Notes: generated by a model from the sequence alone, not told the origin. DNA of 46,977 nt from an uncultured Parabacteroides sp. (GCA_964610765.1 CAZSWS010000014.1:1-46977), one strand, 5' to 3'; counted from the first letter of the stretch, positions 5,858 to 41,891 are shown. A program made the numbers and translations.

Positions 5858-6019
5858 TCTTATTTTTATTTGTACATTTGCCTCTGAATTAATGTGGATA
5901 GATTTGTATTGATTGCAACCACAGGAAAAAATGCTAAAAACAACACTTCCATATCTGCTGTTTTACATTTCCTCTTCATTAATTCACAACTGATTATTTT
6001 TTTAAAACAACAGAACACA

Positions 6020-13856: not shown

Positions 13857-16142
13857 ATGTACAAAGCTATTATCTCTTTCACCTTCTTCGCACTTTCCTT
13901 TTATTCCGGTTTGGCACAAGCTCCGAGTCATTTAACGACCGACTTAATCGAGCATACCGATCGTGTATTTCTAAACGGATATCCCTCAGGGGTATCTTTA
14001 ACTGAACTAAATTCAACAATCGAACCGTATCAAACCGTTCTAATCCGGAGCACCCATCCACGACTGGGCTGGGTGATGAACAGCGAGAAAACAAATGTTA
14101 TACAATCAGCTTATCGGATATTAATGGCTAGTTCAGCAGAACTTTTAGAAGAAGGCAAGGCAGATATTTGGGATAGTGGAAAAACACAAGATGAAAACTC
14201 CACAGCAGTAAAACAAAGTGGCAAAGCCTTAAAAACATCTAGCATCTATTTTTGGAAAGTAAAAACATGGGATCAAGATGAATTAGAAAGTGAATACTCA
14301 CACATAAGAAGCTTCCGAACAGCCGATGTTTTAGACGGAAAAACTGCCGTATATCCACTGCAAAAAACCGACGAACACCCCATCCTCATAACCCCTATAA
14401 AAAAGGGAGACACCTATATTGATTTCGGGAAAGTAGCCTTTGGGCAATTGAAGCTAACCCTCACTTCACAAAAAACAACCGATACCATTCATATTCACCT
14501 AGGTGAACATGCCATCAATGGTCGAGTGGATAGAAAGCCAAAAGGCAGCATCCGATATACACACTATCGACTTCCTTTGATGCAAGGCACACACACTTAC
14601 CTGTTAAAAATAAAACCGGATAAGCGTAATACGGACACGTCAGCCAACGAAAGTGGTGTCAAACCCATCTTTATGCCGGACTACATAGGTGAAGTCCATC
14701 CGTTTAGGTATTGTGAAATAGAAAACTACACGACACCTATTCAAACAAACGACCTAATAAGACAATCTGTTCATTATCCCTTTAACGATTCGGCTGCCTA
14801 TTTTCATTCGTCTGATAGCGTGTTAAATAAGGTATGGGAGCTATCTAAGTATTCCATCAAAGCTACCTCTTTTGCCGGCATCTATGTGGATGGCGACAGA
14901 GAACGAATCCCGTATGAAGCAGATGCCTTAATCAATCAACTTTGTCATTACGCAGTCGATCGCGAATTTTCTATGCCTAGATACAGTCATGAATATCTAA
15001 TCCATGAAGCGACATGGCCTACCGAATGGATTATGCAATCGGTTATTATGGCTTGGAATGATTATCTATATACAGGCAACACCGTTTCGCTTGAACGATA
15101 TTATGAAGACCTTCAATCAAAAACTCTACTATCTCTCAAAGAAACAAACGGACTGATTAGCACAAAGACTAATAAACAAACGCCTGAACTACTCCAATCC
15201 ATTCATTTCAAAGGAAAAGCCCTAAGAGATATTGTTGATTGGCCTCAAAGCGGAGTGCTAGGTGTTGAAAAGTCAGAGGCCGGCGAAGCGGATGGTTATG
15301 TTTTAACAACATACAATACGGTCGTTAATGCGTATCATTATTACGTTTTAAAGCGCATAAGTGAAATAGCTCATCTTTTAGGACATCAAGAAGATGGTCT
15401 ATTATATGCTCAAGAGGCTGAAAACGTAAAGCAACAAATCAACCGCCTACTCTTCAATAAGAAAAAAGGTTATTATCAAGATGGAATAGATACTGACCAC
15501 GCATCGTTGCATGCTAACATGTTTCCTTTGGCATTTGGAGTAGCCCCCCAAAAACATCAACAAACTGTAATGGAATTCATCCGCTCCCGAGGAATGGCTT
15601 GTAGCGTATATGGCTCACAGTTTTTACTGGACGCCGTGTACGATGCGGAAGATGCCGCCTATGGATTATCTTTGCTTACCTCTACCGGCGAACGCAGCTG
15701 GTATAACATGATTCGCACAGGAGCAACCATCACGACTGAAGCATGGGATACAAAATATAAGCCCAACCAAGACTGGAATCATGCATGGGGAGCTGCTCCT
15801 GCCAATTTAATTCCCCGTAAACTAATGGGCATCGAGCCAATAGAGCCGGGATTTAGCAAAATACGCATTAAACCACAACCGGGTAGTTTGCGCCATGCAA
15901 ATATTCGTATTCCTACCATTCGTGGAGATATTGGAGTTTCATTTGAAAACATACCACAACAACATTTCAGCATCACCGTAGAAGTACCCGCAAACAGTAC
16001 CGCCGAGGTCTGGTTACCTCTGCCTGGCAAGAAATATCACCTAACCATTAACGGCACAGCCCAAAAAGGGGTCATCGTTAATGCATTTGTCAAAGTAACT
16101 GTTGGGTCGGGGAAGCATCAGTTACTGATTGAGGGGAGGTGA
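13857..16142 (+). CDS. Alpha-L-rhamnosidase-like glycoside hydrolase (GH78 family), secreted.
   Basis: 761 aa with a signal peptide. YFWKVKTWDQDELESEYSHIRSFRTA matches the GH78 N-terminal domain signature (Y.W.V.VWD...SFETG). A later (alpha/alpha)6-like segment is present (YHYYVLKRISEIAHLLG...GYYQDG). The last 93 nt are duplicated 10 kb downstream. Confidence 0.6.
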   Translation: MYKAIISFTFFALSFYSGLAQAPSHLTTDLIEHTDRVFLNGYPSGVSLTELNSTIEPYQTVLIRSTHPRLGWVMNSEKTNVIQSAYRILMASSAELLEEGKADIWDSGKTQDENSTAVKQSGKALKTSSIYFWKVKTWDQDELESEYSHIRSFRTADVLDGKTAVYPLQKTDEHPILITPIKKGDTYIDFGKVAFGQLKLTLTSQKTTDTIHIHLGEHAINGRVDRKPKGSIRYTHYRLPLMQGTHTYLLKIKPDKRNTDTSANESGVKPIFMPDYIGEVHPFRYCEIENYTTPIQTNDLIRQSVHYPFNDSAAYFHSSDSVLNKVWELSKYSIKATSFAGIYVDGDRERIPYEADALINQLCHYAVDREFSMPRYSHEYLIHEATWPTEWIMQSVIMAWNDYLYTGNTVSLERYYEDLQSKTLLSLKETNGLISTKTNKQTPELLQSIHFKGKALRDIVDWPQSGVLGVEKSEAGEADGYVLTTYNTVVNAYHYYVLKRISEIAHLLGHQEDGLLYAQEAENVKQQINRLLFNKKKGYYQDGIDTDHASLHANMFPLAFGVAPQKHQQTVMEFIRSRGMACSVYGSQFLLDAVYDAEDAAYGLSLLTSTGERSWYNMIRTGATITTEAWDTKYKPNQDWNHAWGAAPANLIPRKLMGIEPIEPGFSKIRIKPQPGSLRHANIRIPTIRGDIGVSFENIPQQHFSITVEVPANSTAEVWLPLPGKKYHLTINGTAQKGVIVNAFVKVTVGSGKHQLLIEGR
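16050..16142 (+). repeat. Copy A of a 93-bp perfect direct repeat. It forms the 3' end of the GH78 gene, stop codon included.
   Basis: The segment from AACGGCACAGCCCAAAAAGGGG through GAGGGGAGGTGA is identical base for base to 26285..26377. Confidence 0.9.
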
Positions 16143-16516
16143 AAAGAATCTAAACAAAATATTTATTAAGAAAATATAGTCATTCTGCAAATAAAAAATC
16201 ATATTTCAAAGAGAAAGTGTCATTTATTTGAGTAATATTGAATGCAATTATGGTTACTTTACATAAATAAATATAACACAATAAAAATTACAAAAACTAA
16301 ACTGAATTTAGTTTATCACCTTCCAAGTATCAAAAGTATTAAAATTCATAGCAGAATTTAAACTAACAATATTTTAAGAAATACCTAAAATCACTCTTAA
16401 ACAAAAGATTAACCAAAAAAAGAATCGCATAAAAACACAAACATCTTACTATTGATTTAAAAAAACTTAACTTTTAAAGCTAAACAAATACTACTATTAA
16501 CCTAAAGTGATATCTC

Positions 16517-17875
16517 ATGAAAAAGAACGCTTTCCTCATCATTTTTCCACTTCTGTTTTTTTTCGCATCATGTGGAGATGACAAAAAAGACTTTGATGCG
16601 TACAATGTACCTTACAACCCCAGTCTTCCAATAGAAATTGCTTCTATTGGCCCTAAAGTAGGAGGCTTGGGAACTCGGGTAGTTATTTCTGGCAGTAATT
16701 TTGGAAATGATACATCTAAAATCAAACTCTATTTCAATACCAAAGAAGCTTTAATTCTTAAAGCTCAAACTAATGCTATTTATGCAATGGTACCTAAACA
16801 ACCTGGAGAATATTCCACAATTACTGTTGCTATTAAAGAAGGAGAAAATGCTGATGGAACTCCAAAATACAAAGAAGCGGTTTTAGAAAACATTCAGTTT
16901 AAATACAATATAAAAGCCACGGTCACCACAGTTGCAGGAATATATAATGAAGCCGTCGCAAAAGACGGCCCGGCTCTTGAAGCTTCTTTTCAACGCCCTG
17001 TTATGCTTTCTGTTGATAACACTGGAGTTATTCTTATTTCTGACGATGATGCTAAACGAGTGAGGTTTCTATCTCTTCAAGACAATAAAGTAACGACTGT
17101 ACTTTCAGGCATGAACTCTCCTTGGCAAAACACATTTAATTATAAGTCTGATAAGTTTTTTGTTATTGAGCGCTATACGACTTTACGTCCACATTTATTT
17201 ACTGGATTATATAAAGAAGACAACTGGCAAGAGCCAGATATTTTCTACGACCAAAAAGACGCTTCAGGGAACTACATTGCAGGCAACATGCGACATTATG
17301 GTATAGCTGCTGATGATGATTATATATATGTGCTATCTGAATATGGGACTCGATTTATTAGGGTTCATCAAATAACACGTAAAGTTGAACTAATAGGTCA
17401 AAACCTGAATATGGACTCTTGGTCACATATAGCCATGAATAAAAAAAATGGCATGATGTACATCACAGCTGAAGGAAGGGGACGTTTATACAGGCTTAAT
17501 CCTTATCATATACCAGCAGGTCACACAACACCTTGGCTGACACAGGCAGACATAGAACATATTGTAGGGACTGGTAGAGGTCCCGCTAAAGAAGGCAATG
17601 GAAAATCCGCTCAGCTAGGAGAAATTGAAGGATTAGCCTGTGACCAAGAAGGAAATGTATATTTAGCGGATTATACCAATCATATTATATGGAAAATTGA
17701 TGAGGAATTCAATGCAACCATTTTTGCTGGCGTACCAGGAACTTCAGGCTATCTAGATGGAAAACCAAAAGAGGCATTGTTCAATAGACCTTATGACGTC
17801 TCAGCAACACCGGATGGCATTCTCTATGTTGCCGATACCTTCAATAGACTTATCAGATGTGTAGCTGTACAATAA
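16517..17875 (+). CDS. Surface lipoprotein with an IPT/TIG-like domain and NHL-repeat beta-propeller.
   Basis: 452 aa. The lipobox is FFFASCGDD. The N-terminal Ig-like segment (VVISGSNFGNDTSKIKLYFN) resembles IPT/TIG. Repeated TV.G/YVAD-type NHL-like blades follow. This is the common first gene of Bacteroides PULs. Confidence 0.5.
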   Translation: MKKNAFLIIFPLLFFFASCGDDKKDFDAYNVPYNPSLPIEIASIGPKVGGLGTRVVISGSNFGNDTSKIKLYFNTKEALILKAQTNAIYAMVPKQPGEYSTITVAIKEGENADGTPKYKEAVLENIQFKYNIKATVTTVAGIYNEAVAKDGPALEASFQRPVMLSVDNTGVILISDDDAKRVRFLSLQDNKVTTVLSGMNSPWQNTFNYKSDKFFVIERYTTLRPHLFTGLYKEDNWQEPDIFYDQKDASGNYIAGNMRHYGIAADDDYIYVLSEYGTRFIRVHQITRKVELIGQNLNMDSWSHIAMNKKNGMMYITAEGRGRLYRLNPYHIPAGHTTPWLTQADIEHIVGTGRGPAKEGNGKSAQLGEIEGLACDQEGNVYLADYTNHIIWKIDEEFNATIFAGVPGTSGYLDGKPKEALFNRPYDVSATPDGILYVADTFNRLIRCVAVQ

Positions 17876-17893
17876 TCTCAAAAAGTAACCATA

Positions 17894-20800
17894 ATGAAAA
17901 AATATATATTTTTAATACTGACACTCGCATTCTTCACACCGTTGACTCTTATGGCACAGACTCAGGTGAGAGTCAAAGGAGTAGTCACAGATGCTGAAAC
18001 ACATGAAACCCTAGTTGGAGTTACTGTTAGTCTAAAAACTGACAACACTAAGGCCGTAATTACCAACTCAGAAGGCGCATATGAAATTTATGCTAACGCA
18101 GGATCAACATTGGTGTTTACATTTATTGGCTCCAAACCAAAAGAAGTAAAAATAGGTGACGCTTCTAATCAAACTATTAATATTGAAATGGAAGCTAGTA
18201 GTCAAATGCTAGAAGAAGTAAGCGTTGTGGCATATGGAACACAACGAAAGGTAAGTGTAGTAGGAGCTATCACAACAGTCAAGCCGGATGCCCTCAATGT
18301 TTCAGGGGTTACATCCATTTCAAATGCCTTGGCAGGCCGAGTTGCGGGACTAATAGGTATTCAGCGAAGTGGAGAGCCGGGGCAAGACGTTTCCGAGTTT
18401 TGGATTCGAGGAATAAGCACCTTTGGGGCAAACAGTAGCGCATTAATTTTAATTGATGGGATAGACAGAGGTAGCTCCAGTTTGAACGAGTTAGCACCTG
18501 AAGATATAGAAAGTTTTTCTATACTTAAAGACGCTACTGCTACTGCGGTATATGGTGCAAGAGGGGCAAATGGTGTTGTATTAATTAACACCAAACGTGG
18601 ACAAGAAGGTCGAATCAATATTAATGTAAATATTAAGACTATGATTGAAGAACTTCCTCGTCTGCCCAAATATTTAAGAGCTTATGATTATGCTGTTTTA
18701 GCAAATGAAGCAAGAATTATTAGGGGAGAAAAGTCCGCCTATGCTCCAGAAGTATTTGACATTATTAAATACAATATGGACAATGACTTATACCCGGATG
18801 TGAATTGGCAAGATGAAATCTTAAAAAATCAGACATGGGGCGTACAGGGCAATGTTAATATTTCGGGGGGAAGCAATTTAGCTCGTTATTATATGAGCGC
18901 ATTTTATAGAACGAACGATGCTATTTACAAACAATACGGGATGGAGCGTTATCACTCAAATGTAAGGAGAAATCAGTTTACATTTAGAAGCAACATTGAT
19001 GTTAATGTTACCAAAACAACATTAGTAAGTTTGTTGCTCTCTGCCAAATTAGTAGATATGAATCGGCCAGGAGCTGGAACAACATCAGACATATGGGCAG
19101 CACAGGCTAATTTAACACCACTAACTGTACCTATACGCTATTCTAATGGACAGTTCCCATCATATGGGAAATCAGATAACACTTCTCCATCCGTTTTATT
19201 AAATGAAACTGGTTTTCTTACAGATCGAGATAATTCTATAGAATCTTTATTAACATTAGAACAAAATCTAGATTTTATTACTGAAGGATTAAAGGTATCC
19301 GGATCTGTTTCTTTTGATAATTATAATAATCACATCACTAGTCGAATCAAAGGACCTGATTTGTATAAAGCCATAGACAGAAACTGGAATACCGGAGAGC
19401 TTATTACTCAAAAAACGGTTGTTGCAAAACCCATGACTTTCTCCAGTTCTTCCTACGGAACAAGAACAATATATATGGAAGCAAAGATGGAGTACAATGG
19501 AGTTTTTAATGAAAAGCATAGAGTTGGAGGTCTATTCCTTTATAACCAAAAGGACTACCAAAGAACAGATGCCAATAACGAACTAAGCTCTATTCCAAGA
19601 CGTAACCAAGGAATAGCAGGTCGCTTAACCTATTCTTTTGATGACAAATACTTTGTTGAAGGGAACTTTGGATATAATGGTTCGGAAAACTTTCCAAAAG
19701 GGCAACGATTTGGTTTTTTCCCATCTTTCGCTTTAGGATATGTTATTTCCAACCATGCGATAGTAAAAGAAAAGCTTCCTTTTATTGATATGCTTAAACT
19801 ACGTTACTCATACGGTTTAGTTGGTAATGATCAAATTAGGAATGACGTTCGCTTTCCCTATCTGACAACCGTAAACATGTCTGCATCAAGCTATGTATTT
19901 GGAGACCAAAAGCAAACCAATGTTGGTGCCGTCACAGACGGGGTGTTGGGTTCTACCGGTTTAGTTTGGGAAAAAGCTATTAAGCAAAACTATGGAATAG
20001 ATATTACCTTATTTGATAATTTTAATATTACAGTAGATGCTTTCTTGGATCGACGTAACAATATCTTTATGCAACGCGTCACCCTACCCGGCACTATAGG
20101 AGTTGGAACAAAACCATGGGGTAATGTAGGAAAAATGAAAAGTTGGGGAGCAGATGGTACTATCTCATATATGCACCAATTTAAAAACGGATTAATGCTT
20201 GAAGGGCGTGCTAATTTCACACTTACTAGAGACAAAATTATAGATTATGATGAAGTTTTACCTAGATACCCTTACCTAGCTAAAAAAGGTACGAGCAATA
20301 ACGTAACTCGCGGATTAGTTGCTCTTGGTTTATTCAAAGATGAAGATGATGTAAAAAACAGTCCTACACATTTTGGGAAAGTGTATCCAGGAGATATAAA
20401 ATATCAAGATATAAATGGTGATGGACGAATTGACAATGACGATATCATACCGATTGGAAATTCTAATGTGCCCAAACTGCAGTACGGTTTTGCTCTAAGT
20501 GCCAATTGGAAGGGCTTTGACCTAAGTGCCTTTTTCAGAGGCGCAAGCCAAGTTGATTACTTCCTTGGAGGAAGCGGATACTACCCGTTTGAAGGAGGAG
20601 TAACCGGCAATGTTTTAACCATTGTAAATGAGCAAAAAAATCGTTGGACTCCGGCTTCCTACTCTGGTGACCCGAATACCGAAAATCCGAATGCAAGATT
20701 TCCCCGTTTAACCTATGGAAGTAACTCCAATAACAATCGAAAATCTTCATTTTGGTTAGCTGACGCCAGCTATTTAAGGTTTAAAACACTAGAGATAGGG

Positions 20801-20983
20801 TATACCATCCCTAAAAAAGTGGCTAACAAAATCAAAATGAGCAACTTAAGGGTATCCGTCATCGGAGATAACCTACATGTCTGGGACAATGTTAAACTGT
20901 GGGACCCGGAACAAGCCAGTGACAATGGAGCTGTTTATCCCCTTACACGCTCCTATTCATTAGTTTTACAATTATCATTCTAA
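17894..20983 (+). CDS. SusC/RagA-family TonB-dependent outer-membrane transporter.
   Basis: 1029 aa. It has a signal peptide, a carboxypeptidase-regulatory-like N-terminal domain (VKGVVTDAETHETLVGVTV), a TonB-box region EEVSVVAYGTQRK, a plug, and a C-terminal beta-barrel ending in F. Confidence 0.9.
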   Translation: MKKYIFLILTLAFFTPLTLMAQTQVRVKGVVTDAETHETLVGVTVSLKTDNTKAVITNSEGAYEIYANAGSTLVFTFIGSKPKEVKIGDASNQTINIEMEASSQMLEEVSVVAYGTQRKVSVVGAITTVKPDALNVSGVTSISNALAGRVAGLIGIQRSGEPGQDVSEFWIRGISTFGANSSALILIDGIDRGSSSLNELAPEDIESFSILKDATATAVYGARGANGVVLINTKRGQEGRININVNIKTMIEELPRLPKYLRAYDYAVLANEARIIRGEKSAYAPEVFDIIKYNMDNDLYPDVNWQDEILKNQTWGVQGNVNISGGSNLARYYMSAFYRTNDAIYKQYGMERYHSNVRRNQFTFRSNIDVNVTKTTLVSLLLSAKLVDMNRPGAGTTSDIWAAQANLTPLTVPIRYSNGQFPSYGKSDNTSPSVLLNETGFLTDRDNSIESLLTLEQNLDFITEGLKVSGSVSFDNYNNHITSRIKGPDLYKAIDRNWNTGELITQKTVVAKPMTFSSSSYGTRTIYMEAKMEYNGVFNEKHRVGGLFLYNQKDYQRTDANNELSSIPRRNQGIAGRLTYSFDDKYFVEGNFGYNGSENFPKGQRFGFFPSFALGYVISNHAIVKEKLPFIDMLKLRYSYGLVGNDQIRNDVRFPYLTTVNMSASSYVFGDQKQTNVGAVTDGVLGSTGLVWEKAIKQNYGIDITLFDNFNITVDAFLDRRNNIFMQRVTLPGTIGVGTKPWGNVGKMKSWGADGTISYMHQFKNGLMLEGRANFTLTRDKIIDYDEVLPRYPYLAKKGTSNNVTRGLVALGLFKDEDDVKNSPTHFGKVYPGDIKYQDINGDGRIDNDDIIPIGNSNVPKLQYGFALSANWKGFDLSAFFRGASQVDYFLGGSGYYPFEGGVTGNVLTIVNEQKNRWTPASYSGDPNTENPNARFPRLTYGSNSNNNRKSSFWLADASYLRFKTLEIGYTIPKKVANKIKMSNLRVSVIGDNLHVWDNVKLWDPEQASDNGAVYPLTRSYSLVLQLSF

Positions 20984-20994
20984 TAATATTCGTC

Positions 20995-23016
20995 ATGAAA
21001 AATAAAATAAAAAAGCAATTCTCAAAAATAGCAGCAACCTTAATCGTTTGTTTTAGCTGCTGTTTTCAGTCATGCGATTTCCTTGATATAGACCCCTATA
21101 TAGCAGACTTATTTACATTAGACACCGTATTTAAAAAGAAGGAGTATACCGAGAAATATTTAAATAATATTTACTCATATCTTGTTGACTATGGATCAGC
21201 AAGTGCCTGGACACCTAATTCAATGCCCTACTCACTAATTACGGATGAAGGAATCGCTGGATACAAAAGACACACACACAACTATAACTACTTCTGCAAC
21301 AACGAAATGAAAGCAGAAAGCTTGGAAAACTTTGACCGTTGGGATTATTTTTATGAAGGAATTCGAAAAGCTAACACCTTTATTCTACGAGTTAATGAAT
21401 GTCAAGAGGTTTCAGCCTTACAACGATCTGAATGGATGGGAGAGGCTAAGTTTATCAAAGCAAATCTATACTTTGAATTAATGCTTGCACATGGTCCAAT
21501 CCCTATTGTACCGGATGAACCCGTAAGCTTTGATACTCCTATAGAACAAATGATGCTTGAGCGAAATACTTGGGATGAATGCAATGATTATGTGAGCAAT
21601 CTTTTAGAAGAATCGATCAAACTCCTACCTTACAGTATTAGAGATAATTCACAAATGGGAAAACCAACAAAAGCTTCTGCTATGGCTGTCCTTTCCCGAC
21701 TTACATTATATACAGCTAGCCCTTTATACAACGGACAAAACTCCGAGTTCTCCAACTTTAGAAATGAAGCAGGTATACCTTATCTAAATCCGGAAAAAAA
21801 CATGGAAAAATGGGCTATTGCAGCTGCTAATGCTAAACGATTATTAACCGATTCTAATTACGAGAACCTTTCTCTTTACACGGTACCTAAAATGGAGAAT
21901 ACACCTCTGCCTCCTGTTCCAGGACATGAACAAGCAGACTTCCCAAACGGTGTAGGAGGAATTGACCCCTATCATTCATATGCTGACATGTTTAACGGAG
22001 AATGCGTCTTGGCTTCAACTAATCTGGAAATATTATTTTCTAAGCAAAATGGCACGACAGGCACCCGCTATAGCATTCCCGGGATGATAGATGGCTGGGG
22101 AGTATTTTTCATTCCACAAAGTCTAGTTGACGCATATTACATGGTAGATGGTAGAGACATTAGCGATGCTAGCGATAAATATCCTTACGAAAATGGCTTC
22201 ACAAACAATGAAGTCACTTTTTCCGGCGCAAAAGATGGGAATGGCTTCACCATATTAAGCGAAACCTATAAATGGTATGTCAATAGAGAAATGCGTTTTT
22301 ATGCAACCATAGGATACAACAATTCATATTATCCATCAACATCTACTCCACCGGACAAAATAGACCAGCAAGATGGAAAAATTGCAAAGTTTTACAGAGA
22401 CTCTAAAGGGGGAAAAGACTATGCCTTAAACCGTCCATCAGGTGAGGCAGAAGAATATCCTATGACCGGATATCTATGTCGCAAGTTCGTTCATTATGAA
22501 GACTCCTATATTTCTGGAGGACGCGAAAAAACAAAATACACCATCTCTTATCGTTTAGCCGAGGTATATATGAATTATGTTGAAGCTATGAACGAATTAG
22601 ATCAATCATATACTATTGGGGAAATTACTGTATCTAGAGATGTACAAGAAATAAAAAAATACTTCAATAGAGTAAGATACAGGGTTGGTTTACCCGGTAT
22701 AACCGATGCTGATGTCGCCAATGTTGAAAGAATGAGAGAGCTTATAGAACGTGAACGAAGAATTGAATTTGCATGGGAAAGTCGACGATACCATGATTTA
22801 CGTCGTACAAAAAGAGCTATTATTTTCGAGAATGCACCAATTACCGGCTGTGACGTAGATGTAACAACGGCTAATCCTGAAGCTTACTACAACATCATAC
22901 AGGTGAAAGAACGGAACTGGATTTACAAAGTATTTACCAACAGGCAAACGTTTCTTCCTATTCCTAAAAGAGAAGTAGATAAAAACAGGAAACTAGATCA
23001 AATGCCCGGTTTCTAA
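20995..23016 (+). CDS. SusD/RagB-family nutrient-binding outer-membrane lipoprotein.
   Basis: 673 aa. The lipobox is CFSCCFQSC. The all-alpha/TPR-like composition fits SusD-like proteins. It lies immediately downstream of SusC. Confidence 0.85.
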   Translation: MKNKIKKQFSKIAATLIVCFSCCFQSCDFLDIDPYIADLFTLDTVFKKKEYTEKYLNNIYSYLVDYGSASAWTPNSMPYSLITDEGIAGYKRHTHNYNYFCNNEMKAESLENFDRWDYFYEGIRKANTFILRVNECQEVSALQRSEWMGEAKFIKANLYFELMLAHGPIPIVPDEPVSFDTPIEQMMLERNTWDECNDYVSNLLEESIKLLPYSIRDNSQMGKPTKASAMAVLSRLTLYTASPLYNGQNSEFSNFRNEAGIPYLNPEKNMEKWAIAAANAKRLLTDSNYENLSLYTVPKMENTPLPPVPGHEQADFPNGVGGIDPYHSYADMFNGECVLASTNLEILFSKQNGTTGTRYSIPGMIDGWGVFFIPQSLVDAYYMVDGRDISDASDKYPYENGFTNNEVTFSGAKDGNGFTILSETYKWYVNREMRFYATIGYNNSYYPSTSTPPDKIDQQDGKIAKFYRDSKGGKDYALNRPSGEAEEYPMTGYLCRKFVHYEDSYISGGREKTKYTISYRLAEVYMNYVEAMNELDQSYTIGEITVSRDVQEIKKYFNRVRYRVGLPGITDADVANVERMRELIERERRIEFAWESRRYHDLRRTKRAIIFENAPITGCDVDVTTANPEAYYNIIQVKERNWIYKVFTNRQTFLPIPKREVDKNRKLDQMPGF

Positions 23017-23049
23017 AGCACATATGATAAACTCTAAAAAAACAATTCT

Positions 23050-23946
23050 ATGAAACTACATATTTTTAAAATCGCTATTTTCTTCTTAGCACTAGGAGTT
23101 TTTGCTTCATGTGACAGCAATCCTGTTGTCGATTTTGGAGAGCAGTATAAAAAGACCATCTATATTGTAAACTCAAGGGGAATGCTGTATAGTCAAGAGC
23201 ATTTTTACGACAATGAAGAAGGTGTTATTGAGATATCTGTTTACTGTGGTTCATCAGAACCCATTAAAAAAGACATCAATGTCACACTTAAAATCAACCC
23301 GGAAGCCTTAGACTCACTAAACAAGTTAAATTCCCTAGGAGATCCTTTATATGTCAATAAGACTATATTACCAGAAAGCCACTATGACTTTTCAAAAGGA
23401 ACTGTTACAATAAAGGCTAAAACGCAATATACACCACTCCAAATACCGATTATTACCAAAGGACTTGATGCGGATATTACGTATACTTTACCCATATCAA
23501 TTGTTTCTAATGATGCAAACTATGATATCAATCCTGAATTAAAAACAATCATATACGAGCTTAGAATGGTAAATGGATATTCCGGTAGTTTTAGTGGAAG
23601 TTCGACAGAACTACCTAAGACTATACGCTCAGTTCAGCCGACATTGAAAGCTATTTCTTCTAACACAGTACGCATGCCAATACATAACTTATCATCTAAC
23701 ATTCAAAACTTAGATACGAACTTTATGTTATTAACTATTGGAAGTGATAGTACAAGCGTCAGCATCTCTCCTTGGAAAAATGCTAAAGTCACAGATTTGG
23801 GAGGAAGCACCTTTGACAAGAAACGAAGAAATTATACCTTAAATTATTCTTTTGAGAACAAAGATGGGGTAGCTTTATCAATTCTTGAAAAAATATCTGA
23901 TATAAACTATACGGATCCTGACGAAGAAGAAGAAATTGATGAATAA
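23050..23946 (+). CDS. PUL-associated surface lipoprotein (SusE/F-position; DUF1735-like beta-sandwich).
   Basis: 298 aa. The lipobox is VFASCDSN. The body is beta-rich and the C-terminal tail is acidic (DPDEEEEIDE). Its position after SusD supports the call; the family assignment is tentative. Confidence 0.4.
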   Translation: MKLHIFKIAIFFLALGVFASCDSNPVVDFGEQYKKTIYIVNSRGMLYSQEHFYDNEEGVIEISVYCGSSEPIKKDINVTLKINPEALDSLNKLNSLGDPLYVNKTILPESHYDFSKGTVTIKAKTQYTPLQIPIITKGLDADITYTLPISIVSNDANYDINPELKTIIYELRMVNGYSGSFSGSSTELPKTIRSVQPTLKAISSNTVRMPIHNLSSNIQNLDTNFMLLTIGSDSTSVSISPWKNAKVTDLGGSTFDKKRRNYTLNYSFENKDGVALSILEKISDINYTDPDEEEEIDE

Positions 23947-24048
23947 AAATTATCCCCATCAATAGAAGTATCACACTCTTTTCACTATAAAAATTGTTGG
24001 TGATATACACAGATTATTCCTGATAAGTTTAAAGTATATATTTTAACT

Positions 24049-26223
24049 TTGAATCTTATCAGGAATAACTTATTTCATCATATGCCATCGGGCAGAAAGA
24101 CATTTCTTATTTTTTTAACCACATTAAGCTTTGCAGATATGAAAAAAAGATTACCAATTTCACTCATTGTTTTCTCTCTCATAAGTATCACCCAACTACT
24201 AGCCTTATCCATCAACAACACCCCCGACTATAAGCAGCCTGTTTATCATCTTTCCAACCTAGCAGTATCCATGGATGGCTACGATAATGAAATACGAACT
24301 GGGATTAGAATTTTAAAAGACGAGTGGACTTTAGAAGCTTGGGTAAAAGGAGATGATAAAAGCTGGAAAGAATATGAAGTTATCATTGGAGGGGGTGAAT
24401 ACAGCGAATTAAATTCTTGTGACAACATGCCTCTTGTACTGAAAGAAGGAAAATTACATTGCAAGGGGGCTAATATTTCCGCCTCTACGGTACTAGATGA
24501 TCAATGGCATCATATTGCTGCAAGTTGTGATGGCAAACAAACCACACTTTTTCTTGATGGGACAATAGTAGCTCAAGCGGATACAGCTATAGCAATCCTT
24601 CCTGGCGCGATAGGCTCAAACAAAAAAGGACAAACTTGGGGAGGTTTAATTGACGAGGTTAGAATCTGGGACACAGCCTTATCTCAAGCAATACTCAAAA
24701 AGTGGAAAAACAAATCACTAGAAGCTAGCCATCTACATATAAATAACTTAATCGCATATTATCCTTTTGATGACTTTAAAGATGAATTATCTATTAACTG
24801 GGTTGGTCAAGGTCATCAATCATATCATATTCGTAATGGAAGAATAGACTTTTACGGTTCACTTTCCAAAGCATATACAGTAGTTAATGACAATCCTCAG
24901 TTCATCCCTTATAAAGGCAATCAAACAGTATTTAATGCTGTCAGTGTTAATAGTGAGTGGGATGTAGACCAAAATGCTAAGGACTGTCAGATAATCAAAT
25001 TAAGAATAGCTGTCAATGGAAATGACAACCCCCTAAAACTAACTAAAGTAGTTCTCGATTTATCAGAAAACACGTCATTAAACGATATTTCTAAGATTCA
25101 TTTATATCAAACCGGAAAATATCCAAATTCGAAAGAGAGAAATAAATTATGTGGTACAGGTGTATATCCCGGCAGAAAAAAAACACTTGAAATAAATCCG
25201 AGTGAAAACACTTACTTATCACAAGGCATTAACTATTTCTTAATCACATTTGACATAGATAAAAAAGCTAAAATCAATAATACTATTCATGCATCTATTT
25301 CCTCATTCACTCTAAACAACAAAACATATATTCCAGAAAAAGACCACGATTTTATCAAACAAAAAGTGGTAAAAAACAGTAGCGAAGATGCTAATATTCT
25401 GAAGGTTTTACAGTGGAATATATGGCATGGGGGTGTACATTTAGGTAAACATCAAGGAAGAGAACGCATTATAGATTTGATACAAAAAACGAATGCTGAT
25501 ATCATAACAATGCAAGAAGGCTATGGTGCACAAGATACAATCGCCTCATCAATCGGTTTCTACCTACAAACTAACTCCCCTAAAGACAATTTGGCACTTC
25601 TTAGCAGATATCCTATTAAACAACGTATTATATCAGAAGAGCCATTCAAATCAAACCCTGCAATTATTTCATTACCAAATAACAAACGTATATTAGTTAA
25701 CGATTGTTGGCTACGCTACTCCCATAATCCGGAATATACAAGTTTATATGCAAGCAACGGGTTAGATCCAGACTTATGGATCAGAGAAGATTCTCTCCTA
25801 CCTTTAGTTGATATCAAGAACCTAATAAGCAAAGATATAGAACCTTATATGGAAGAACATGACATGCCTATTATTATTGGAGGTGATTTTAATTCCGGGA
25901 GCCATTTAGACTGGACTGAAAAAGCCAAACATCTCCATAACGGTTATGGTCCTGTGAATCTTCCTGTATCTCAACACCTAGTATCTGAAGGATTTAAGGA
26001 TAGTTTCAGAGAAGCATACCCTGATGAAGTTTATTATCAAGGGGGAACATTTGCTGTAATTTTTGGACAGCTGCAAGACTCTAGGATAGACTACATCTAT
26101 TACAAAGGGAAAGGCATGAAAGTTCTTGCATCTAAGATTATCCGTTCATCATACGAAATTGATGATGTATGGGCATCTGATCATGCTGCTGTTATTACTG
26201 TTTTTGACACAAGCGAAAAATAA
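24049..26223 (+). CDS. Secreted LamG-like lectin domain fused to an endonuclease/exonuclease/phosphatase (EEP) family phosphoesterase.
   Basis: 724 aa; the probable true start is MKKRLPISLIVFSL at 24139, which has a signal peptide. The N-terminal segment WTLEAWVK...LFLDGTIVAQAD...DEVRIWDTALSQ matches the LamG/ConA-like fold. The C-terminal LKVLQWNIWHGG, DIITMQEGYG, GGDFNSGSHLDW and WASDHAAV match EEP catalytic motifs. Confidence 0.65.
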   Translation: MNLIRNNLFHHMPSGRKTFLIFLTTLSFADMKKRLPISLIVFSLISITQLLALSINNTPDYKQPVYHLSNLAVSMDGYDNEIRTGIRILKDEWTLEAWVKGDDKSWKEYEVIIGGGEYSELNSCDNMPLVLKEGKLHCKGANISASTVLDDQWHHIAASCDGKQTTLFLDGTIVAQADTAIAILPGAIGSNKKGQTWGGLIDEVRIWDTALSQAILKKWKNKSLEASHLHINNLIAYYPFDDFKDELSINWVGQGHQSYHIRNGRIDFYGSLSKAYTVVNDNPQFIPYKGNQTVFNAVSVNSEWDVDQNAKDCQIIKLRIAVNGNDNPLKLTKVVLDLSENTSLNDISKIHLYQTGKYPNSKERNKLCGTGVYPGRKKTLEINPSENTYLSQGINYFLITFDIDKKAKINNTIHASISSFTLNNKTYIPEKDHDFIKQKVVKNSSEDANILKVLQWNIWHGGVHLGKHQGRERIIDLIQKTNADIITMQEGYGAQDTIASSIGFYLQTNSPKDNLALLSRYPIKQRIISEEPFKSNPAIISLPNNKRILVNDCWLRYSHNPEYTSLYASNGLDPDLWIREDSLLPLVDIKNLISKDIEPYMEEHDMPIIIGGDFNSGSHLDWTEKAKHLHNGYGPVNLPVSQHLVSEGFKDSFREAYPDEVYYQGGTFAVIFGQLQDSRIDYIYYKGKGMKVLASKIIRSSYEIDDVWASDHAAVITVFDTSEK

Positions 26224-26284
26224 TTTCAGTAAGTTCCCTTGGAAAACATAATCAACCTATCATAAAAGACTAAAAAGAGAGTAA

Positions 26285-26377
26285 AACGGCACAGCCCAAA
26301 AAGGGGTCATCGTTAATGCATTTGTCAAAGTAACTGTTGGGTCGGGGAAGCATCAGTTACTGATTGAGGGGAGGTGA
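26285..26377 (+). repeat. Copy B of the 93-bp perfect direct repeat. It is an orphan duplicate of the GH78 3' end.
   Basis: Identical to 16050..16142. It lies in the convergent intergenic space 44 bp from the BCCT stop codon. Confidence 0.9.
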
Positions 26378-28950: not shown

Positions 28951-29094
28951 ATACCGTTTTATAAAAAAGACTATATTGAAATTCAAAAAAGACTATAGAC
29001 TTTTTAGTAAAACACTATACCCTTTTTAAGAAAAGTCTATAGTCTTTTTTCTCTGACACAATGGCAGTATTTTTATTTCTAAAAAAACGGTATT
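28951..29094. repeat. Nested inverted-repeat element. Outer arms are 10 bp and inner arms a perfect 20 bp, with internal direct repeats.
   Basis: The inner inverted repeat is AAAAAAGACTATAGACTTTT (28985-29004) against its reverse complement at 29031-29050. The outer pair is ATACCGTTTT (28951-28960) against AAAACGGTAT (29085-29094). AAAAAAGACTATA also occurs directly repeated at 28964, and CACTATACC(G/C)TTTT occurs twice. Confidence 0.5.
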
Positions 29095-35232: not shown

Positions 35233-37029
35233 ATGATAAAACGCACACGCCTTCTAATAGTTCTAACTTGCTTGTTTTTTTCAACAAATATACTCTATAC
35301 AAGCCAAGAAACGCAGGGTGAGCCGGGAACACAGTCCGCTTTCACTCATCGAATTGATTCCCTTGTCACCCTTTCCAAGCATGTATCCGGTCTGGAACGA
35401 ATCAATATTTACACGACTTTGCATACTATTTTATATTCGTATAATGATGCGGAAGCACATATTCAGTTGATGCATCGTTTTTTAAATATTACTAAGACCG
35501 AAAAAGATGAATTCGGGATGGCAAATGCCTATATGTTTTTAGTAGATGCGCTATACAATTATGACTATCCTCTAAACACGCTTCAAAAAGAAGCATTAGA
35601 AGCATTAGACGTTATTCGATATCTTGATTTTAAAAACGCCGAAATCATCTATTTCAATATAGCTGACCACCTGTTAATGAGATATCTGGCTTCAAAAAAA
35701 TATGAAAAAACATTGGCTTTAGGCAAAAAAATATATAAAGAGGCCAAAGAAAAGGAGTGTAGCTATGGACTGGCAGTCGCTCTTAAAAGCATGGGAAACA
35801 GCTATGATGCCCTCAAGGGTTATGATAAAGCAATCGAAGTGCACAAAGAAGTTATATCAATCAAGGGCGACGAATATACTTCTCAGGCACAGATGGATTC
35901 CTATAATTTCCTGGTAGATGTTTTAATAAAAGAAGATAGACCTAATGAAGCACTTGAGATATGTCAAAAGTTTGAAGCATTTATCAAGGATGAATGCACC
36001 GACAAGCTTAACTTAGATGCAGTCACATTAGATCGGATGTGGTTCTATTGTCACCTTTCTTATGTCGAAGTATACACATATCTTGAACAATATGCTAAGG
36101 CCGAAAATTATCTTGCTCATGCCGACACTTGTTGGATGCGCCATTCAGCTATTGCCGCATTTAACTTGGAGGATAGCCAATATGAGCTATTGTTAGCACA
36201 AAAGAAATATGAAGAGGCTGAAAAAACTCTAAATCGAATGGAAAGCGAACTTGGAGATACAGATCGATTCTATAAAAAGATGCGCCTGCTATTTTATCGT
36301 GCAGATTTAAATTATGTGAGAGGAAAACATCAAGCTGCTGCCGATGAATATAGAAAATATGCCATCAAAAATGATTCCATCAATAAAGTAGAAATAGCCG
36401 ATGAGCTAAGTAGGCTGAGAACCGAATATGAGGTAGACAAACTGGAATTTCAAAAGGAACAGCAAGCCAATAATCATCGCATGGCTATTATGTGGTTTTT
36501 GATTATTTTCATCTTATTATCCTCAATCATTATCATCATCATAGTTGGCTTACAGAAGCTCCGAGTGAAAAACCGTTCGTTAATTTATCGCATTTACGAA
36601 CAAGACGAGCAAGAAAGAAGATATGAAAAAATGCAAAACCTATGGATGGAAAATACACTTATTGATGTTTCAGAAAATAAAAAAAGACCAGAAGATATTC
36701 ATTCAAGACTCAAGGAACTGATGAAAGACCCTGCCGTCTTCACCGACCCTTCTATCAACAGAAAAGACATTGCAGAAAGATTAGGTACAAACGAAAAATA
36801 TGTTTACGATACTATTAAAGAGTTTTATGGCACTAATATTTCGGACTATATAAACAAATTGCGACTTAACTACGCCCGGGCTCTGCTGGCAATTCCTAAT
36901 GATAGACGCACTGTTGATGCAATAGCTCTTGAGTCTGGCTTTAATAGCCGCAGCACCTTCTATCGCCTTTTTAAAGAGCATTACGGAATGACTCCTATTG
37001 AATTTCGTCGACTTATTGCAACTTCATAG
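35233..37029 (+). CDS. Membrane-anchored AraC-family transcriptional regulator with an N-terminal TPR-like sensor domain.
   Basis: 598 aa. The order is a signal peptide, about 400 aa of TPR-like repeats, a single TM helix (MWFLIIFILLSSIIIIIIVGL), then a C-terminal AraC HTH (LESGFNSRSTFYRLFKEHYGMTPIEFRR). Confidence 0.75.
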   Translation: MIKRTRLLIVLTCLFFSTNILYTSQETQGEPGTQSAFTHRIDSLVTLSKHVSGLERINIYTTLHTILYSYNDAEAHIQLMHRFLNITKTEKDEFGMANAYMFLVDALYNYDYPLNTLQKEALEALDVIRYLDFKNAEIIYFNIADHLLMRYLASKKYEKTLALGKKIYKEAKEKECSYGLAVALKSMGNSYDALKGYDKAIEVHKEVISIKGDEYTSQAQMDSYNFLVDVLIKEDRPNEALEICQKFEAFIKDECTDKLNLDAVTLDRMWFYCHLSYVEVYTYLEQYAKAENYLAHADTCWMRHSAIAAFNLEDSQYELLLAQKKYEEAEKTLNRMESELGDTDRFYKKMRLLFYRADLNYVRGKHQAAADEYRKYAIKNDSINKVEIADELSRLRTEYEVDKLEFQKEQQANNHRMAIMWFLIIFILLSSIIIIIIVGLQKLRVKNRSLIYRIYEQDEQERRYEKMQNLWMENTLIDVSENKKRPEDIHSRLKELMKDPAVFTDPSINRKDIAERLGTNEKYVYDTIKEFYGTNISDYINKLRLNYARALLAIPNDRRTVDAIALESGFNSRSTFYRLFKEHYGMTPIEFRRLIATS

Positions 37030-39058: not shown

Positions 39059-39076
39059 CTCAAACCATAAAACAGG

Positions 39077-41876: not shown

Positions 41877-41891
41877 GTAAAAGAAAATATC

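What the first reader, a model, noticed from the sequence alone, without database searches (positions are those of the whole stretch)
16517..26223. PUL-like cassette whose only enzyme is a lectin-fused EEP phosphoesterase, with no glycoside hydrolase
Canonical polysaccharide utilisation loci pair SusC/SusD with glycoside hydrolases or lyases. Here the only catalytic protein is a secreted 724-aa fusion of a LamG/ConA-like lectin domain with an endonuclease/exonuclease/phosphatase domain (motifs WNIWHGG, DIITMQEGYG, GGDFNSGSHLDW, SDHAAV). The EEP family includes DNase I, sphingomyelinases and inositol-polyphosphate phosphatases. The locus may therefore target a phosphodiester-containing substrate, such as extracellular nucleic acid, teichoic-acid-like or phosphoglycan material, or a phosphorylated glycolipid headgroup, rather than a neutral glycan. 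The IPT/NHL and post-SusD lipoproteins would be the surface binding proteins. It is horizontally acquired (see the repeat finding) and AT-shifted.
Basis: partly seen in the sequence, partly recalled or inferred. Interest (0 to 1): 0.6.

Follow-up and report, generated by a model that had tools for sequence, protein, structure and literature searches.

The report
Mobile nutrient-uptake cassette with phosphoesterase
A 10-kb, horizontally inserted SusC/SusD outer-membrane uptake cassette of a Bacteroidales bacterium carries an uncharacterised lectin-fused phosphoesterase instead of a sugar-cutting enzyme, and related cassettes swap in other phosphodiesterases, so it most likely harvests a phosphate-ester-containing nutrient rather than a plain polysaccharide.

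Summary
Window 16517-26223 holds five same-strand genes: an IPT/TIG-NHL lipoprotein, SusC, SusD, a DUF1735/BT_3044-like lipoprotein, and a LamG + BNR_assoc_N + EEP protein. The EEP protein probably has 694 aa, starting at ATG 24139. Its EEP catalytic set is complete and conserved.

A GH78-like gene lies 375 bp upstream, but it is not part of the unit. A 99%-identical strain has GH78-like followed directly by the BCCT gene, with one copy of a 93-nt sequence that flanks the cassette here. The cassette is therefore a 10,235-bp insertion with no glycoside hydrolase, no regulator and no integrase.

Comparative genomics supports the phosphoester reading. In 12 of 20 SusD lineages with 55-81% identity, the same four-gene transport module sits next to a phosphodiesterase. 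These enzymes come from four unrelated superfamilies: EEP, GDPD, NPP and PC-PLC. A LamG protein usually accompanies them. The EEP family itself often sits in SusCD loci full of phosphoesterases.

The concept already exists: Flavobacterium 'Pus' systems, the B. thetaiotaomicron EEP sugar phosphatase BT3783, and the EEP DNase BT3563. I therefore rate this a new variant of a known kind. The substrate is unresolved, and fold comparison cannot assign an EEP subfamily.

The parts
16050..16142 (+). Left copy of the 93-nt exact direct repeat. It is the last 93 nt, including the stop codon, of the resident GH78-like gene. It acts as the att-like boundary of the insertion.
   Evidence: the repeat finder family D1; sequence read; exact identity of 16050-16142 and 26285-26377 checked; single copy at the empty site in L150.
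16143..16516 (+). AT-rich non-coding leader of the cassette (374 nt). No regulator gene and no recognisable promoter were found.
   Evidence: Sequence. The sigma-70 scan gave no more sites than shuffled sequence. There is no + strand TAnnTTTG in this stretch.
16517..17875 (+). IPT/TIG + NHL-repeat lipoprotein (452 aa). Its lipobox FFASC is followed by GDDKKD, so it is the presumed surface-exposed binding protein.
   Evidence: Pfam TIG 2e-09 and NHL 4e-09; N-terminus; conserved as the first gene of the module in L062-L112 and L151.
17894..20983 (+). SusC/RagA-type TonB-dependent transporter (1029 aa). It has no STN domain.
   Evidence: TIGR04056 at 992 bits (cut-off 368), plus Plug and CarbopepD_reg_2.
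20995..23016 (+). SusD-family lipoprotein (673 aa).
   Evidence: SusD_RagB 2e-48 and SusD-like_3 3e-24; 406 homologues, about 95 of them at 55-81% identity.
23050..23946 (+). DUF1735 (BT_3987-like_N) + BT_3044-like_C lipoprotein (298 aa). Its lipobox is ...FASC followed by DSN. It is the presumed second surface binding protein.
   Evidence: Pfam 1.9e-17 and 5.9e-12; always follows SusD in the module.
23998..24080 (+). Strong hairpin in the 192-nt gap before the EEP gene. The core arms are 24014-24033 and 24049-24068. A TAACTTTG motif lies at 24044-24051. Its function is unknown; it could be an attenuator, an operator or a junction left when the EEP gene was recruited.
   Evidence: Inverted repeat I4. 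The RNA fold is -35.5 kcal/mol with z = -6.6, and 0 of 200 shuffles fold as well. It is unique in the window and not conserved in L006 or L045.
24139..26223 (+). LamG (about residues 40-235) + BNR_assoc_N (about 246-411) + EEP phosphoesterase (about 420-690), 694 aa with a type-I signal peptide. The mechanical ORF extends upstream to the TTG at 24049.
26285..26377 (+). Right copy of the 93-nt direct repeat (a duplicate of the GH78-like gene's 3' end). It marks the end of the 10,235-bp insertion.

Best explanation
This is a self-contained, horizontally inserted SusC/SusD uptake cassette of the 'phosphate/organophosphate utilisation' type, not a glycan-depolymerising PUL.

Proposed mechanism:
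- Two surface lipoproteins (IPT/TIG-NHL and DUF1735/BT_3044-like) and SusD capture a soluble molecule. That molecule carries a phosphoester or phosphodiester next to a sugar or polyol moiety.
- Candidate ligands are phospholipid or sphingolipid head-group fragments (such as glycerophospho- or inositol-phospho-glycans), teichoic-acid-type fragments, or phosphorylated oligosaccharides.
- SusC imports the molecule using TonB energy.
- In the periplasm, the LamG + BNR_assoc_N + EEP enzyme binds the carbohydrate-like part with its two beta-sandwich domains. Its Mg2+-dependent EEP site then cleaves the phosphoester, releasing phosphate or a phospho-head group for further use.

Shown here: the gene content, the intact catalytic residues, the insertion, and the recurrent coupling of this module to phosphodiesterases.

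Inferred: the cellular locations, the order of steps, the chemistry (diester versus monoester) and the substrate.
For: 1. Cassette content and boundaries.
- There are five genes, with no CAZyme, between two exact 93-nt repeats.
- The empty-site allele L150 shows that GH78-like and BCCT are the original neighbours.

2. The EEP domain looks active.
- N427, E460, D583, N585, D651, D681 and H682 align to APE1 N68, E96, D210 and N212.
- The C-terminal residues are matched to the RIDY and SDH motifs; their APE1 numbering is from memory.
- All are invariant or at least 90% conserved.

3. The module recruits phosphodiesterases. Among 20 informative SusD lineages (55-81% identity, dereplicated at 95%), 12 have a phosphodiesterase adjacent:
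- BACON-LamG + BACON-GDPD in 6 lineages;
- NPP/Phosphodiest in L064;
- Big_2-LamG, followed by NPP in L097, in 2 lineages;
- PC-PLC in L069 and L082 (the L069 protein scores 753 bits on TIGR03396, cut-off 580);
- EEP here.
None has a GH immediately downstream.

4. LamG recurs with the phosphodiesterase.
- It is fused to the enzyme here, and in about 500-aa LamG-EEP proteins.
- It is a separate neighbour in the GDPD and NPP loci.

5. Context of the EEP family.
- 18 of 45 dereplicated loci lie within 8 kb of a SusC/SusD pair.
- 8 of those carry further phosphoesterases and no detected GH. An example is the Parabacteroides arrangement ECF sigma - FecR - SusC - SusD - small EEP - EEP - Metallophos - NPP - Metallophos.

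6. Localisation signals.
- EEP has a type-I signal peptide; only 5 of 120 homologues have a lipobox-like pattern.
- PLC has a Tat signal and NPP a type-I signal peptide.
- The LamG and GDPD partners are lipoproteins.

7. Precedent. Pus systems pair SusCD-like transporters with periplasmic phosphodiesterases. PusCD1/2 are required for growth on phosphatidylinositol and glycerophosphoinositol (PMC8115612; bioRxiv 10.64898/2026.09.03.749221).
Against: - No biochemical or expression data exist for any member.
- The SusD lineage best sampled among the closest relatives (73-74% identity, 9 contigs) is followed by an unknown 862-aa protein rather than a recognisable phosphodiesterase. The closest lineage of all (81%, L151) has nothing downstream.
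- In other genomes the EEP family sits beside GH20, GH2+GH35, GH38, GH3, GH30, GH106, GH101-like genes and sulfatases. There it may be an accessory enzyme for phosphorylated glycans.
- The cassette has no regulator, so control by phosphate or by substrate is unknown.
- The 192-nt gap and hairpin before the EEP gene leave open whether it is co-transcribed with the transport genes.
- GH counts in neighbourhoods are lower bounds, because only a subset of neighbours was scanned.
Confidence: 0.55

Rival explanations
1. This is a stripped-down glycan PUL. The target is a phosphorylated glycan, for example Man-6-P or Man-1-P-6-Man on fungal mannan or N-glycans, or another phospho-decorated polysaccharide. 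The glycoside hydrolases are encoded elsewhere in the genome. The EEP protein is only an accessory periplasmic sugar phosphomonoesterase, like BT3783/BT2630 of the B. thetaiotaomicron yeast-mannan PULs.
For: - The B. thetaiotaomicron region BT2614-BT2632 is annotated with IPT/TIG, SusC, SusD and DUF4361 genes together with an EEP protein, GH92 and GH125 (PMC10434189). That is the same transport-module layout.
- EEP-family members lie next to GH38, GH20, GH2 and GH35, and GH3, GH30 and GH106.
- L045, the only other locus with the same five-gene order, has a GH30 two genes downstream.
- The LamG and sialidase-type N-terminal domains suggest carbohydrate recognition.
Against: - There is no sequence similarity to BT3783: it does not appear among PDB hits even at E <= 10.
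- The architecture differs: three domains and 694 aa, against a single domain of about 310 aa.
- The cassette moves as a unit without any GH.
- Sister modules carry diesterases (GDPD, PC-PLC, NPP) rather than sugar phosphatases, and usually no GH.
- L045's module proteins are only 24-43% identical to the window's, so it is a distant analogue.
Confidence: 0.25
2. This is a nucleic-acid scavenging system. The EEP protein is a DNase/RNase, and SusCD imports oligonucleotides, by analogy with the BT3560-BT3563 locus (a TonB-dependent receptor plus EEP lipoprotein DNases).
For: - EEP folds closest by Foldseek are nocturnin, TDP2, ExoIII and APE1.
- The weak sequence hits are to ExoIII and APE1.
- BT3563 is an EEP-family extracellular DNase encoded next to a TonB-dependent receptor (PMC8851478).
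Against: - The enzyme is fused to LamG and a sialidase-type N-terminal domain, not to DNA-binding modules.
- It has a type-I signal peptide rather than a surface-lipoprotein signal.
- Partner enzymes in sister loci (GDPD, PC-PLC) are not nucleases.
- Structural scores to lipid and sugar phosphoesterases are just as high.
Confidence: 0.08
3. The EEP gene is not functionally tied to the transport module. It was juxtaposed by recombination, and the four-gene module imports something unrelated to phosphoesters.
For: - A 192-nt gap with a strong hairpin and a promoter-like TAACTTTG separates the EEP gene from the DUF1735 gene.
- The closest SusD relatives have no EEP.
- A distant module group sits next to thiamine salvage genes.
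- The EEP gene is an orphan in many genomes.
Against: - EEP-family genes are tightly packed behind SusD in many independent lineages: Parabacteroides, Bacteroides hominis and B. fluxus, Pedobacter, and L045.
- The module is coupled again and again to functionally equivalent enzymes.
- The EEP gene lies inside the mobile unit.
Confidence: 0.1

Closest known systems
Phosphate utilisation systems (Pus; PusCD1/PusCD2) of Flavobacterium johnsoniae (Lidbury et al. 2020, PMC8115612; Connolly et al. 2026, bioRxiv 10.64898/2026.09.03.749221)
   Same: - A SusC/SusD-like pair is co-localised with phosphodiesterases or phosphomonoesterases instead of CAZymes.
- The esterases are predicted to be periplasmic.
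- The logic is import of an organophosphate followed by periplasmic hydrolysis.
- The authors also note pusCD-like pairs next to glpQ-like (GDPD) genes in gut Bacteroidota. This matches the sister loci found here.
   Different: - The enzyme families differ. Pus1 has PI-PLC plus a calcineurin-like enzyme, and Pus2 has PhoA-GDPD. Here the enzyme is LamG-BNR_assoc_N-EEP.
- The IPT/TIG-NHL and DUF1735 lipoproteins are not mentioned for Pus.
- The ECF sigma/anti-sigma pair present in Pus1 and Pus2 is absent here.
- The organism is an anaerobic Bacteroidales bacterium, not a plant-associated Flavobacterium.
- This copy is a mobile insertion.
BT3783 / BT2630, EEP-fold sugar phosphatases of the B. thetaiotaomicron yeast-mannan PULs (Cuskin et al. 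2015, PMC4978465; PDB 3MPR, 4C1R)
   Same: - An EEP-fold, Mg2+-dependent phosphoesterase is encoded in a SusC/SusD locus.
- That locus also has an IPT/TIG protein and a DUF4361/DUF1735-type lipoprotein.
   Different: - There is no detectable sequence similarity.
- BT3783 is a single domain of about 310 aa without LamG or BNR_assoc_N.
- The mannan PULs carry many GHs (GH92, GH76, GH125, GH38). This cassette has none.
BT3560-BT3563: TonB-dependent receptor plus EEP-family lipoprotein DNases (PMC8851478)
   Same: An EEP-family enzyme is encoded beside an outer-membrane TonB-dependent transporter in Bacteroides.
   Different: - BT3563 is a surface or vesicle-associated lipoprotein with DNase activity.
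- No SusD, IPT/TIG or DUF1735 genes are described there.
- The enzyme here has lectin-like domains and a type-I signal peptide.
- The sequences were not compared.
Neutral sphingomyelinase / ISC1-type EEP lipid phosphodiesterases (e.g. human SMPD2, PDB 8j2f)
   Same: - They would fit the lipid-head-group theme suggested by the PC-PLC, GDPD and NPP partners of sister modules.
   Different: - The match is no better than to TDP2, nocturnin or ExoIII.
- There is no sequence-level relationship.
- Membrane-interaction features were not examined.
Integrative mobile elements that duplicate the 3' end of a target gene (att-flanked islands)
   Same: - The cassette is flanked by exact 93-nt direct repeats.
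- One repeat is the 3' end of the target gene, which stays intact.
- A near-identical strain has the empty site.
   Different: - The 10.1 kb contains no integrase, recombinase, transposase or transfer gene.
- The mechanism of insertion is unknown.

Membership tests
SusC/SusD-based utilisation locus (PUL in the broad sense) | Adjacent susC-like TonB-dependent transporter and susD-like lipoprotein genes | tested here: met
   TIGR04056 at 992 bits (cut-off 368). SusD_RagB 2e-48 and SusD-like_3 3e-24. The two genes are 11 nt apart.
Canonical polysaccharide utilisation locus | At least one CAZyme (GH, PL or CE) inside the co-regulated unit | tested here: not met
   None of the five cassette proteins hits a GH, PL or CE family. 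The neighbouring GH78-like gene lies outside the inserted unit, as the empty site L150 shows.
Canonical polysaccharide utilisation locus | Cognate sensor/regulator (hybrid two-component system, ECF sigma/anti-sigma, SusR-like) | tested here: not met
   There is no regulator between the repeats. Sister loci do have one: ECF/FecR in L064 and L097, an HTCS in L124, a histidine kinase in L083 and DUF6377 in L045.
EEP superfamily (Pfam PF03372) | Profile match above the curated threshold, and the four-layer alpha/beta sandwich fold | tested here: met
   [not shown]
EEP superfamily (catalytically active member) | Conserved Asn, metal-binding Glu, Asp-x-Asn, Asp and Asp-His residues | tested here: met
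   N427, E460, D583, N585, D651, D681 and H682 (694-aa numbering). The first four align to APE1. All are invariant or at least 90% conserved in A1 and A2. Assignment of the last three to APE1 D283, D308 and H309 rests on motif recall.
Phosphate utilisation system (Pus) | SusCD-like pair co-localised with phosphoesterases rather than CAZymes | tested here: met
   The only enzyme in the cassette is the EEP protein. 12 of 20 related module lineages have an adjacent phosphodiesterase.
Phosphate utilisation system (Pus) | Induction by phosphate depletion and/or organophosphate; growth phenotype on organophosphate | not testable with these tools
   No expression or growth data are available.
Phosphate utilisation system (Pus) | SusD homologous to PusD1 or PusD2, with the Trp/Arg organophosphate pocket | not tested
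   PusD sequences could not be retrieved with the available tools. Only shared Pfam families (PF07980, PF14322) are known, and most SusD proteins have those.
BT3783-type PUL sugar phosphatase | Sequence homology to BT3783/BT2630 and a single-domain architecture of about 310 aa | tested here: not met
   [not shown]
Neutral sphingomyelinase / inositol-phosphosphingolipid PLC subfamily | Closer structural or sequence similarity to nSMase than to other EEP branches | tested here: inconclusive
   [not shown]
Inositol polyphosphate 5-phosphatase subfamily | Closest fold match to INPP5 catalytic domains | tested here: not met
   [not shown]
Site-specific integrative element | Flanking direct repeats plus an empty-site allele | tested here: met
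   Exact 93-nt repeats. L150 has a single copy, with GH78-like and BCCT adjacent.
Site-specific integrative element | Element-encoded integrase or recombinase | tested here: not met
   All five ORFs are accounted for, and no further ORF of at least 80 aa with such a function lies in 16143-26284.

The most novel reading that the evidence does not exclude
The IPT/TIG-NHL - SusC - SusD - DUF1735 module defines a widespread, previously undescribed class of 'phosphodiester utilisation' transporters in anaerobic and gut Bacteroidota.
- The class has independently recruited LamG-assisted phosphodiesterases from four superfamilies (EEP, GDPD, NPP, PC-PLC).
- Its likely purpose is to harvest a glyco- or polyol-phosphodiester, such as plant or fungal glycosyl-inositol-phosphoceramide head groups or teichoic-acid fragments.
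- It can spread as an integrase-less 10-kb cassette through 93-nt att-like repeats at the end of a host gene.
Probability: 0.3. Interest if true: 0.72.

Novelty: new variant of a known kind. Interest (0 to 1): 0.55.

Why it matters
- SusC/SusD systems are still annotated almost automatically as glycan importers. A module that pairs again and again with phosphodiesterases of unrelated folds would extend the recently proposed 'Pus' idea. That idea currently covers plant-associated Flavobacterium; this would take it to anaerobic and gut Bacteroidales.
- It would give a first functional handle on a sizeable uncharacterised LamG-EEP family. The family has about 590 cluster representatives at 50% identity with E <= 1e-10.
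- It points to organophosphate sources (lipid head groups, teichoic acids, phosphoglycans) as traded nutrients in these communities.
- The natural filled-site and empty-site strain pair (99% identical flanks) offers a ready-made comparison for testing what the cassette confers.
- The integrase-less insertion with 93-nt repeats is an unusually clean example of a whole uptake locus moving as a unit.

Tried and rejected
- Sequence searches of the EEP protein against PDB found only weak ExoIII/APE1 matches and matches to sialidase N-terminal domains. This held for the single sequence, the domain alone and the 54-sequence profile. They give no subfamily assignment.
- The AFDB library was not available.
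- An exact-match scan of metagenome contigs for the right junction found nothing. The empty site was found instead through a 99%-identical GH78-like protein.
- An exact look-up of the window's own GH78-like product found no record.
- The sigma-70 promoter and terminator scan and the Bacteroidetes -7 motif TAnnTTTG were not enriched, so no operon structure was derived from them.
- Rfam found no riboswitch in or near the cassette, only a SAM-II element elsewhere.
- I considered that the downstream BCCT choline/betaine transporter might link the cassette to phosphocholine. I rejected this because BCCT is the pre-existing neighbour at the empty site.
- I considered the GH78-like gene as the PUL's missing GH. 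I rejected this for the same reason.
- The unknown 862-aa protein that follows the module in the best-sampled close lineage has no Pfam, NCBIfam or PDB hit. It could not be submitted for structure prediction.
- Literature searches for this domain architecture in a PUL found no direct description. For BT2392-95 they found only a report of down-regulation under iron depletion.

Full report
**What is there.** Window 16517-26223 carries five closely spaced + strand ORFs. Pfam and NCBIfam assign them as follows:
- 16517-17875: IPT/TIG + NHL.
- 17894-20983: SusC (TIGR04056, 992 bits against a cut-off of 368).
- 20995-23016: SusD (SusD_RagB 2e-48).
- 23050-23946: DUF1735 (BT_3987-like_N) + BT_3044-like_C.
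- 24049-26223: a three-domain protein with Laminin_G_3, BNR_assoc_N (the N-terminal domain of Bacteroides-type sialidases) and Exo_endo_phos.

Homologues align from the MKKRLP... at ATG 24139. The TTG at 24049 lies in a TAACTTTG motif inside a hairpin. The protein is therefore most likely 694 aa. It has a type-I signal peptide, no lipobox and no T9SS tail, so I infer a periplasmic location. The IPT/NHL, SusD and DUF1735 proteins have lipoboxes followed by acidic residues. From my own knowledge of the Bacteroidetes lipoprotein export signal, this pattern is typical of surface-exposed lipoproteins.

**Is 'no glycoside hydrolase' true?** At first sight it is not. A GH78-like gene (13857-16142; Bac_rhamnosid6H 2e-42) ends 375 bp upstream on the same strand. 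However, the last 93 nt of that gene (16050-16142) are repeated exactly at 26285-26377, just after the EEP gene.

A Logan contig from another sample (L150) encodes a 99%-identical GH78-like protein. That gene is followed directly by the BCCT transporter gene, with only one copy of the 93-nt sequence.

The cassette is therefore a 10,235-bp insertion. GH78-like and BCCT are the original neighbours and are not part of the unit. The cassette contains no CAZyme, no regulator and no integrase. Its GC content is 36.3%, against 39.8% for the rest of the window. A Logan contig (L001) that covers exactly the cassette and ends 30 nt into each repeat is what a k = 31 assembler produces at such a repeat. 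The k = 31 value is from my own knowledge of that assembler.

**Is the enzyme likely to be active?**
- The alignment to zebrafish APE1 places WNIWHGG, MQEGYG and GGDFNSG on the Asn, Glu and Asp-x-Asn catalytic positions.
- The C-terminal SRIDY and SDH motifs supply the remaining Asp and Asp-His. The APE1 numbering for these is from memory.
- All seven residues (N427, E460, D583, N585, D651, D681, H682) are invariant or at least 90% conserved in alignments of 24 and 54 homologues at about 50-68% identity.
- AlphaFold2 gives a confident three-domain model (pLDDT 92, pTM 0.89).

**Which EEP branch?** This cannot be decided.
- Foldseek ranks nocturnin, TDP2 and ExoIII first.
- Only the INPP5 branch is clearly more distant.
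- Sequence and profile searches of PDB find only weak ExoIII/APE1 matches.
- The middle domain matches the N-terminal domains of gut sialidases (6myv, E = 9e-10).

**The enzyme family.** An exhaustive search with the EEP domain finds 1,305 cluster representatives (50% identity) at E <= 0.001, 587 at E <= 1e-10 and 88 at E <= 1e-30. LamG-EEP is the persistent core. BNR_assoc_N, F5/8-C, PKD, Big_2 or a T9SS tail are added in some members. No source gives any member a functional name.

I fetched 56 genome loci, of which 45 remain after dereplication at 90% identity.
- 18 lie within 8 kb of a SusC/SusD pair.
- 13 have further phosphoesterases adjacent.
- At least 10 have a GH within 8 kb. This is a lower bound, because only some neighbours were scanned.

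The clearest pattern is in Parabacteroides and Tannerellaceae: ECF sigma - FecR - SusC - SusD - (small EEP) - EEP - Metallophos - NPP-type phosphodiesterase - Metallophos, with no GH. Pedobacter and Mucilaginibacter have SusC - SusD - Metallophos - EEP. Elsewhere the gene lies next to:
- GH20 (L037, L049);
- GH2 + GH35 (L027);
- GH38 (Chitinophaga);
- GH3 (L014);
- GH106 (L049);
- GH101-like genes (L028);
- sulfatases (L044);
- an acid phosphatase (L030).

L045 shares the window's five-gene order, with a DUF6377 protein upstream and a GH30 two genes downstream. Its module proteins are only 24-43% identical to the window's.

**The transport module.** This is the most informative result. The SusD has many relatives at 55-81% identity. 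Loci came from exact-protein look-ups and a metagenome scan. They show that IPT/TIG-NHL - SusC - SusD - DUF1735 is a conserved four-gene module.

I dereplicated at 95% SusD identity and required sequence downstream. That left 20 informative lineages (plus L151):
- BACON-LamG + BACON-GDPD: 6 lineages.
- Big_2-LamG: 2 lineages, followed by an NPP-type phosphodiesterase in L097.
- NPP-type phosphodiesterase directly downstream: 1 lineage (L064).
- Phosphocholine-specific phospholipase C: 2 lineages, L069 (downstream) and L082 (upstream). The L069 protein scores 753 bits on TIGR03396 against a cut-off of 580.
- LamG-BNR_assoc_N-EEP: the window.
- Unknown 862-aa protein, with a convergent Y_phosphatase3 gene: 1 lineage (9 contigs).
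- BNR_2 protein: 2 lineages.
- Enolase-superfamily protein: 1 lineage.
- A second IPT gene: 1 lineage.
- Nothing on the same strand: 3 lineages.

No lineage has a GH immediately downstream. One lineage has a GH18 three genes on and a GH43 upstream.

So 12 of 20 lineages pair the module with a phosphodiesterase from one of four unrelated superfamilies. LamG recurs either fused to the enzyme or as a separate neighbour. Convergent recruitment of the same chemistry argues that phosphodiester cleavage is what this transporter needs.

Signal peptides suggest two arrangements. The GDPD and LamG partners are surface lipoproteins. The PLC (Tat signal), NPP and EEP enzymes are periplasmic.

**Mechanism proposed.** Surface lipoproteins and SusD capture a soluble phosphoester-bearing sugar or polyol compound. 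SusC imports it. The periplasmic LamG-BNR_assoc_N-EEP enzyme cleaves the phosphoester.

Each of the four partner superfamilies includes phospholipid or sphingolipid head-group phosphodiesterases (own knowledge). I therefore favour lipid-derived glycerophospho- or inositol-phospho-glycan head groups, or teichoic-acid-type fragments. Phosphorylated glycans are the main alternative. Nucleic acid is the least likely substrate, because the accessory domains and partner enzymes are not nuclease-like. None of this has been shown biochemically.

**Comparison with what is known.**
- The idea that SusCD-like pairs serve organophosphate uptake was proposed for Flavobacterium 'Pus' loci (PMC8115612). It has recently been supported genetically and structurally for phosphatidylinositol and glycerophosphoinositol. 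The same authors note glpQ-linked pairs in gut Bacteroidota (bioRxiv 10.64898/2026.09.03.749221).
- EEP enzymes in SusCD or TBDT loci are also known. BT3783/BT2630 are sugar phosphatases in the yeast-mannan PULs, which share the IPT/TIG-SusC-SusD-DUF4361 layout (PMC4978465; PMC10434189).
- BT3563 is an EEP-family DNase encoded next to a TonB-dependent receptor (PMC8851478).

What is new here:
- this particular module;
- the uncharacterised LamG-(BNR_assoc_N)-EEP family;
- the four-superfamily swapping pattern;
- the movement of the whole locus as an integrase-less cassette.

I rate it a new variant of a known kind.

**Caveats.**
- Gene calls in fetched loci are my own ORF calls, clustered by BLAST.
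- Metagenomic loci may still be partly redundant.
- Neighbour annotation is incomplete.
- A more distant module group (37% SusD identity, human gut) sits beside thiamine salvage genes rather than esterases. This group probably includes the B. thetaiotaomicron BT2392-95 region.
- The source organism was not identified. The closest EEP homologue is from a Dysgonomonas MAG at 68% identity.

Noticed in passing
window 16050-16142 and 26285-26377; empty site at L150:3830-3922: Exact 93-nt direct repeats flank the cassette. One is the 3' end of the GH78-like gene. A 99%-identical strain has GH78-like directly followed by BCCT, with a single copy. The insertion carries no integrase or transposase, so how it moved is unexplained.
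   Followed up: yes
window 23998-24080 (core arms 24014-24033 / 24049-24068): A long AU-rich hairpin (-35.5 kcal/mol, z = -6.6) lies in the gap between the DUF1735 and EEP genes. A Bacteroidetes -7-like TAACTTTG motif lies at 24044-24051. The hairpin is unique in the window and not conserved upstream of EEP homologues in L006 or L045.
   Followed up: partly
window 5888-5947 (+): A SAM-II (long-loop) riboswitch scores 59.3 bits (gathering score 44). It lies directly upstream of the S-adenosylmethionine synthetase ORF and overlaps its listed GTG start (5894-7309). The true start codon is probably further downstream.
   Followed up: no
L070:13079-15667 (also L071-L077, L086, L105, L109): An 862-aa protein has no Pfam, NCBIfam or PDB match. 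It follows the IPT/SusC/SusD/DUF1735 module in the best-sampled close SusD lineage (73-74% identity). A convergent Y_phosphatase3 gene comes after it.
   Followed up: partly
L113-L148 (e.g. L124:1-14357): A common human-gut version of the module (37% SusD identity) has a hybrid two-component regulator and a TonB-dependent receptor upstream. A PnuC-like transporter and thiamin pyrophosphokinase lie downstream. It resembles the B. thetaiotaomicron BT2390-BT2397 thiamine region. Whether the module is linked to thiamine uptake is unknown.
   Followed up: no
P0405 (784 aa), P0374 and P0380: Unusual relatives of the EEP domain: a LamG-EEP fused to a MauG-like di-haem cytochrome c peroxidase, and multi-domain forms with PKD, Big_2 and T9SS sorting tails, some with two EEP domains.
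   Followed up: no
window 37688-46624 (+): A run of same-strand genes includes two proteins without any Pfam hit (456 and 460 aa), a TackOD1 + zinc-ribbon protein (40452-41876) and a family-2 glycosyltransferase (41892-43214). An AraC/TPR regulator lies upstream at 35233-37029.
   Followed up: no
window 28985-29004 / 29031-29050: A perfect 20-nt inverted repeat, with arms separated by 26 nt, lies in the intergenic region upstream of the BCCT gene.
   Followed up: no
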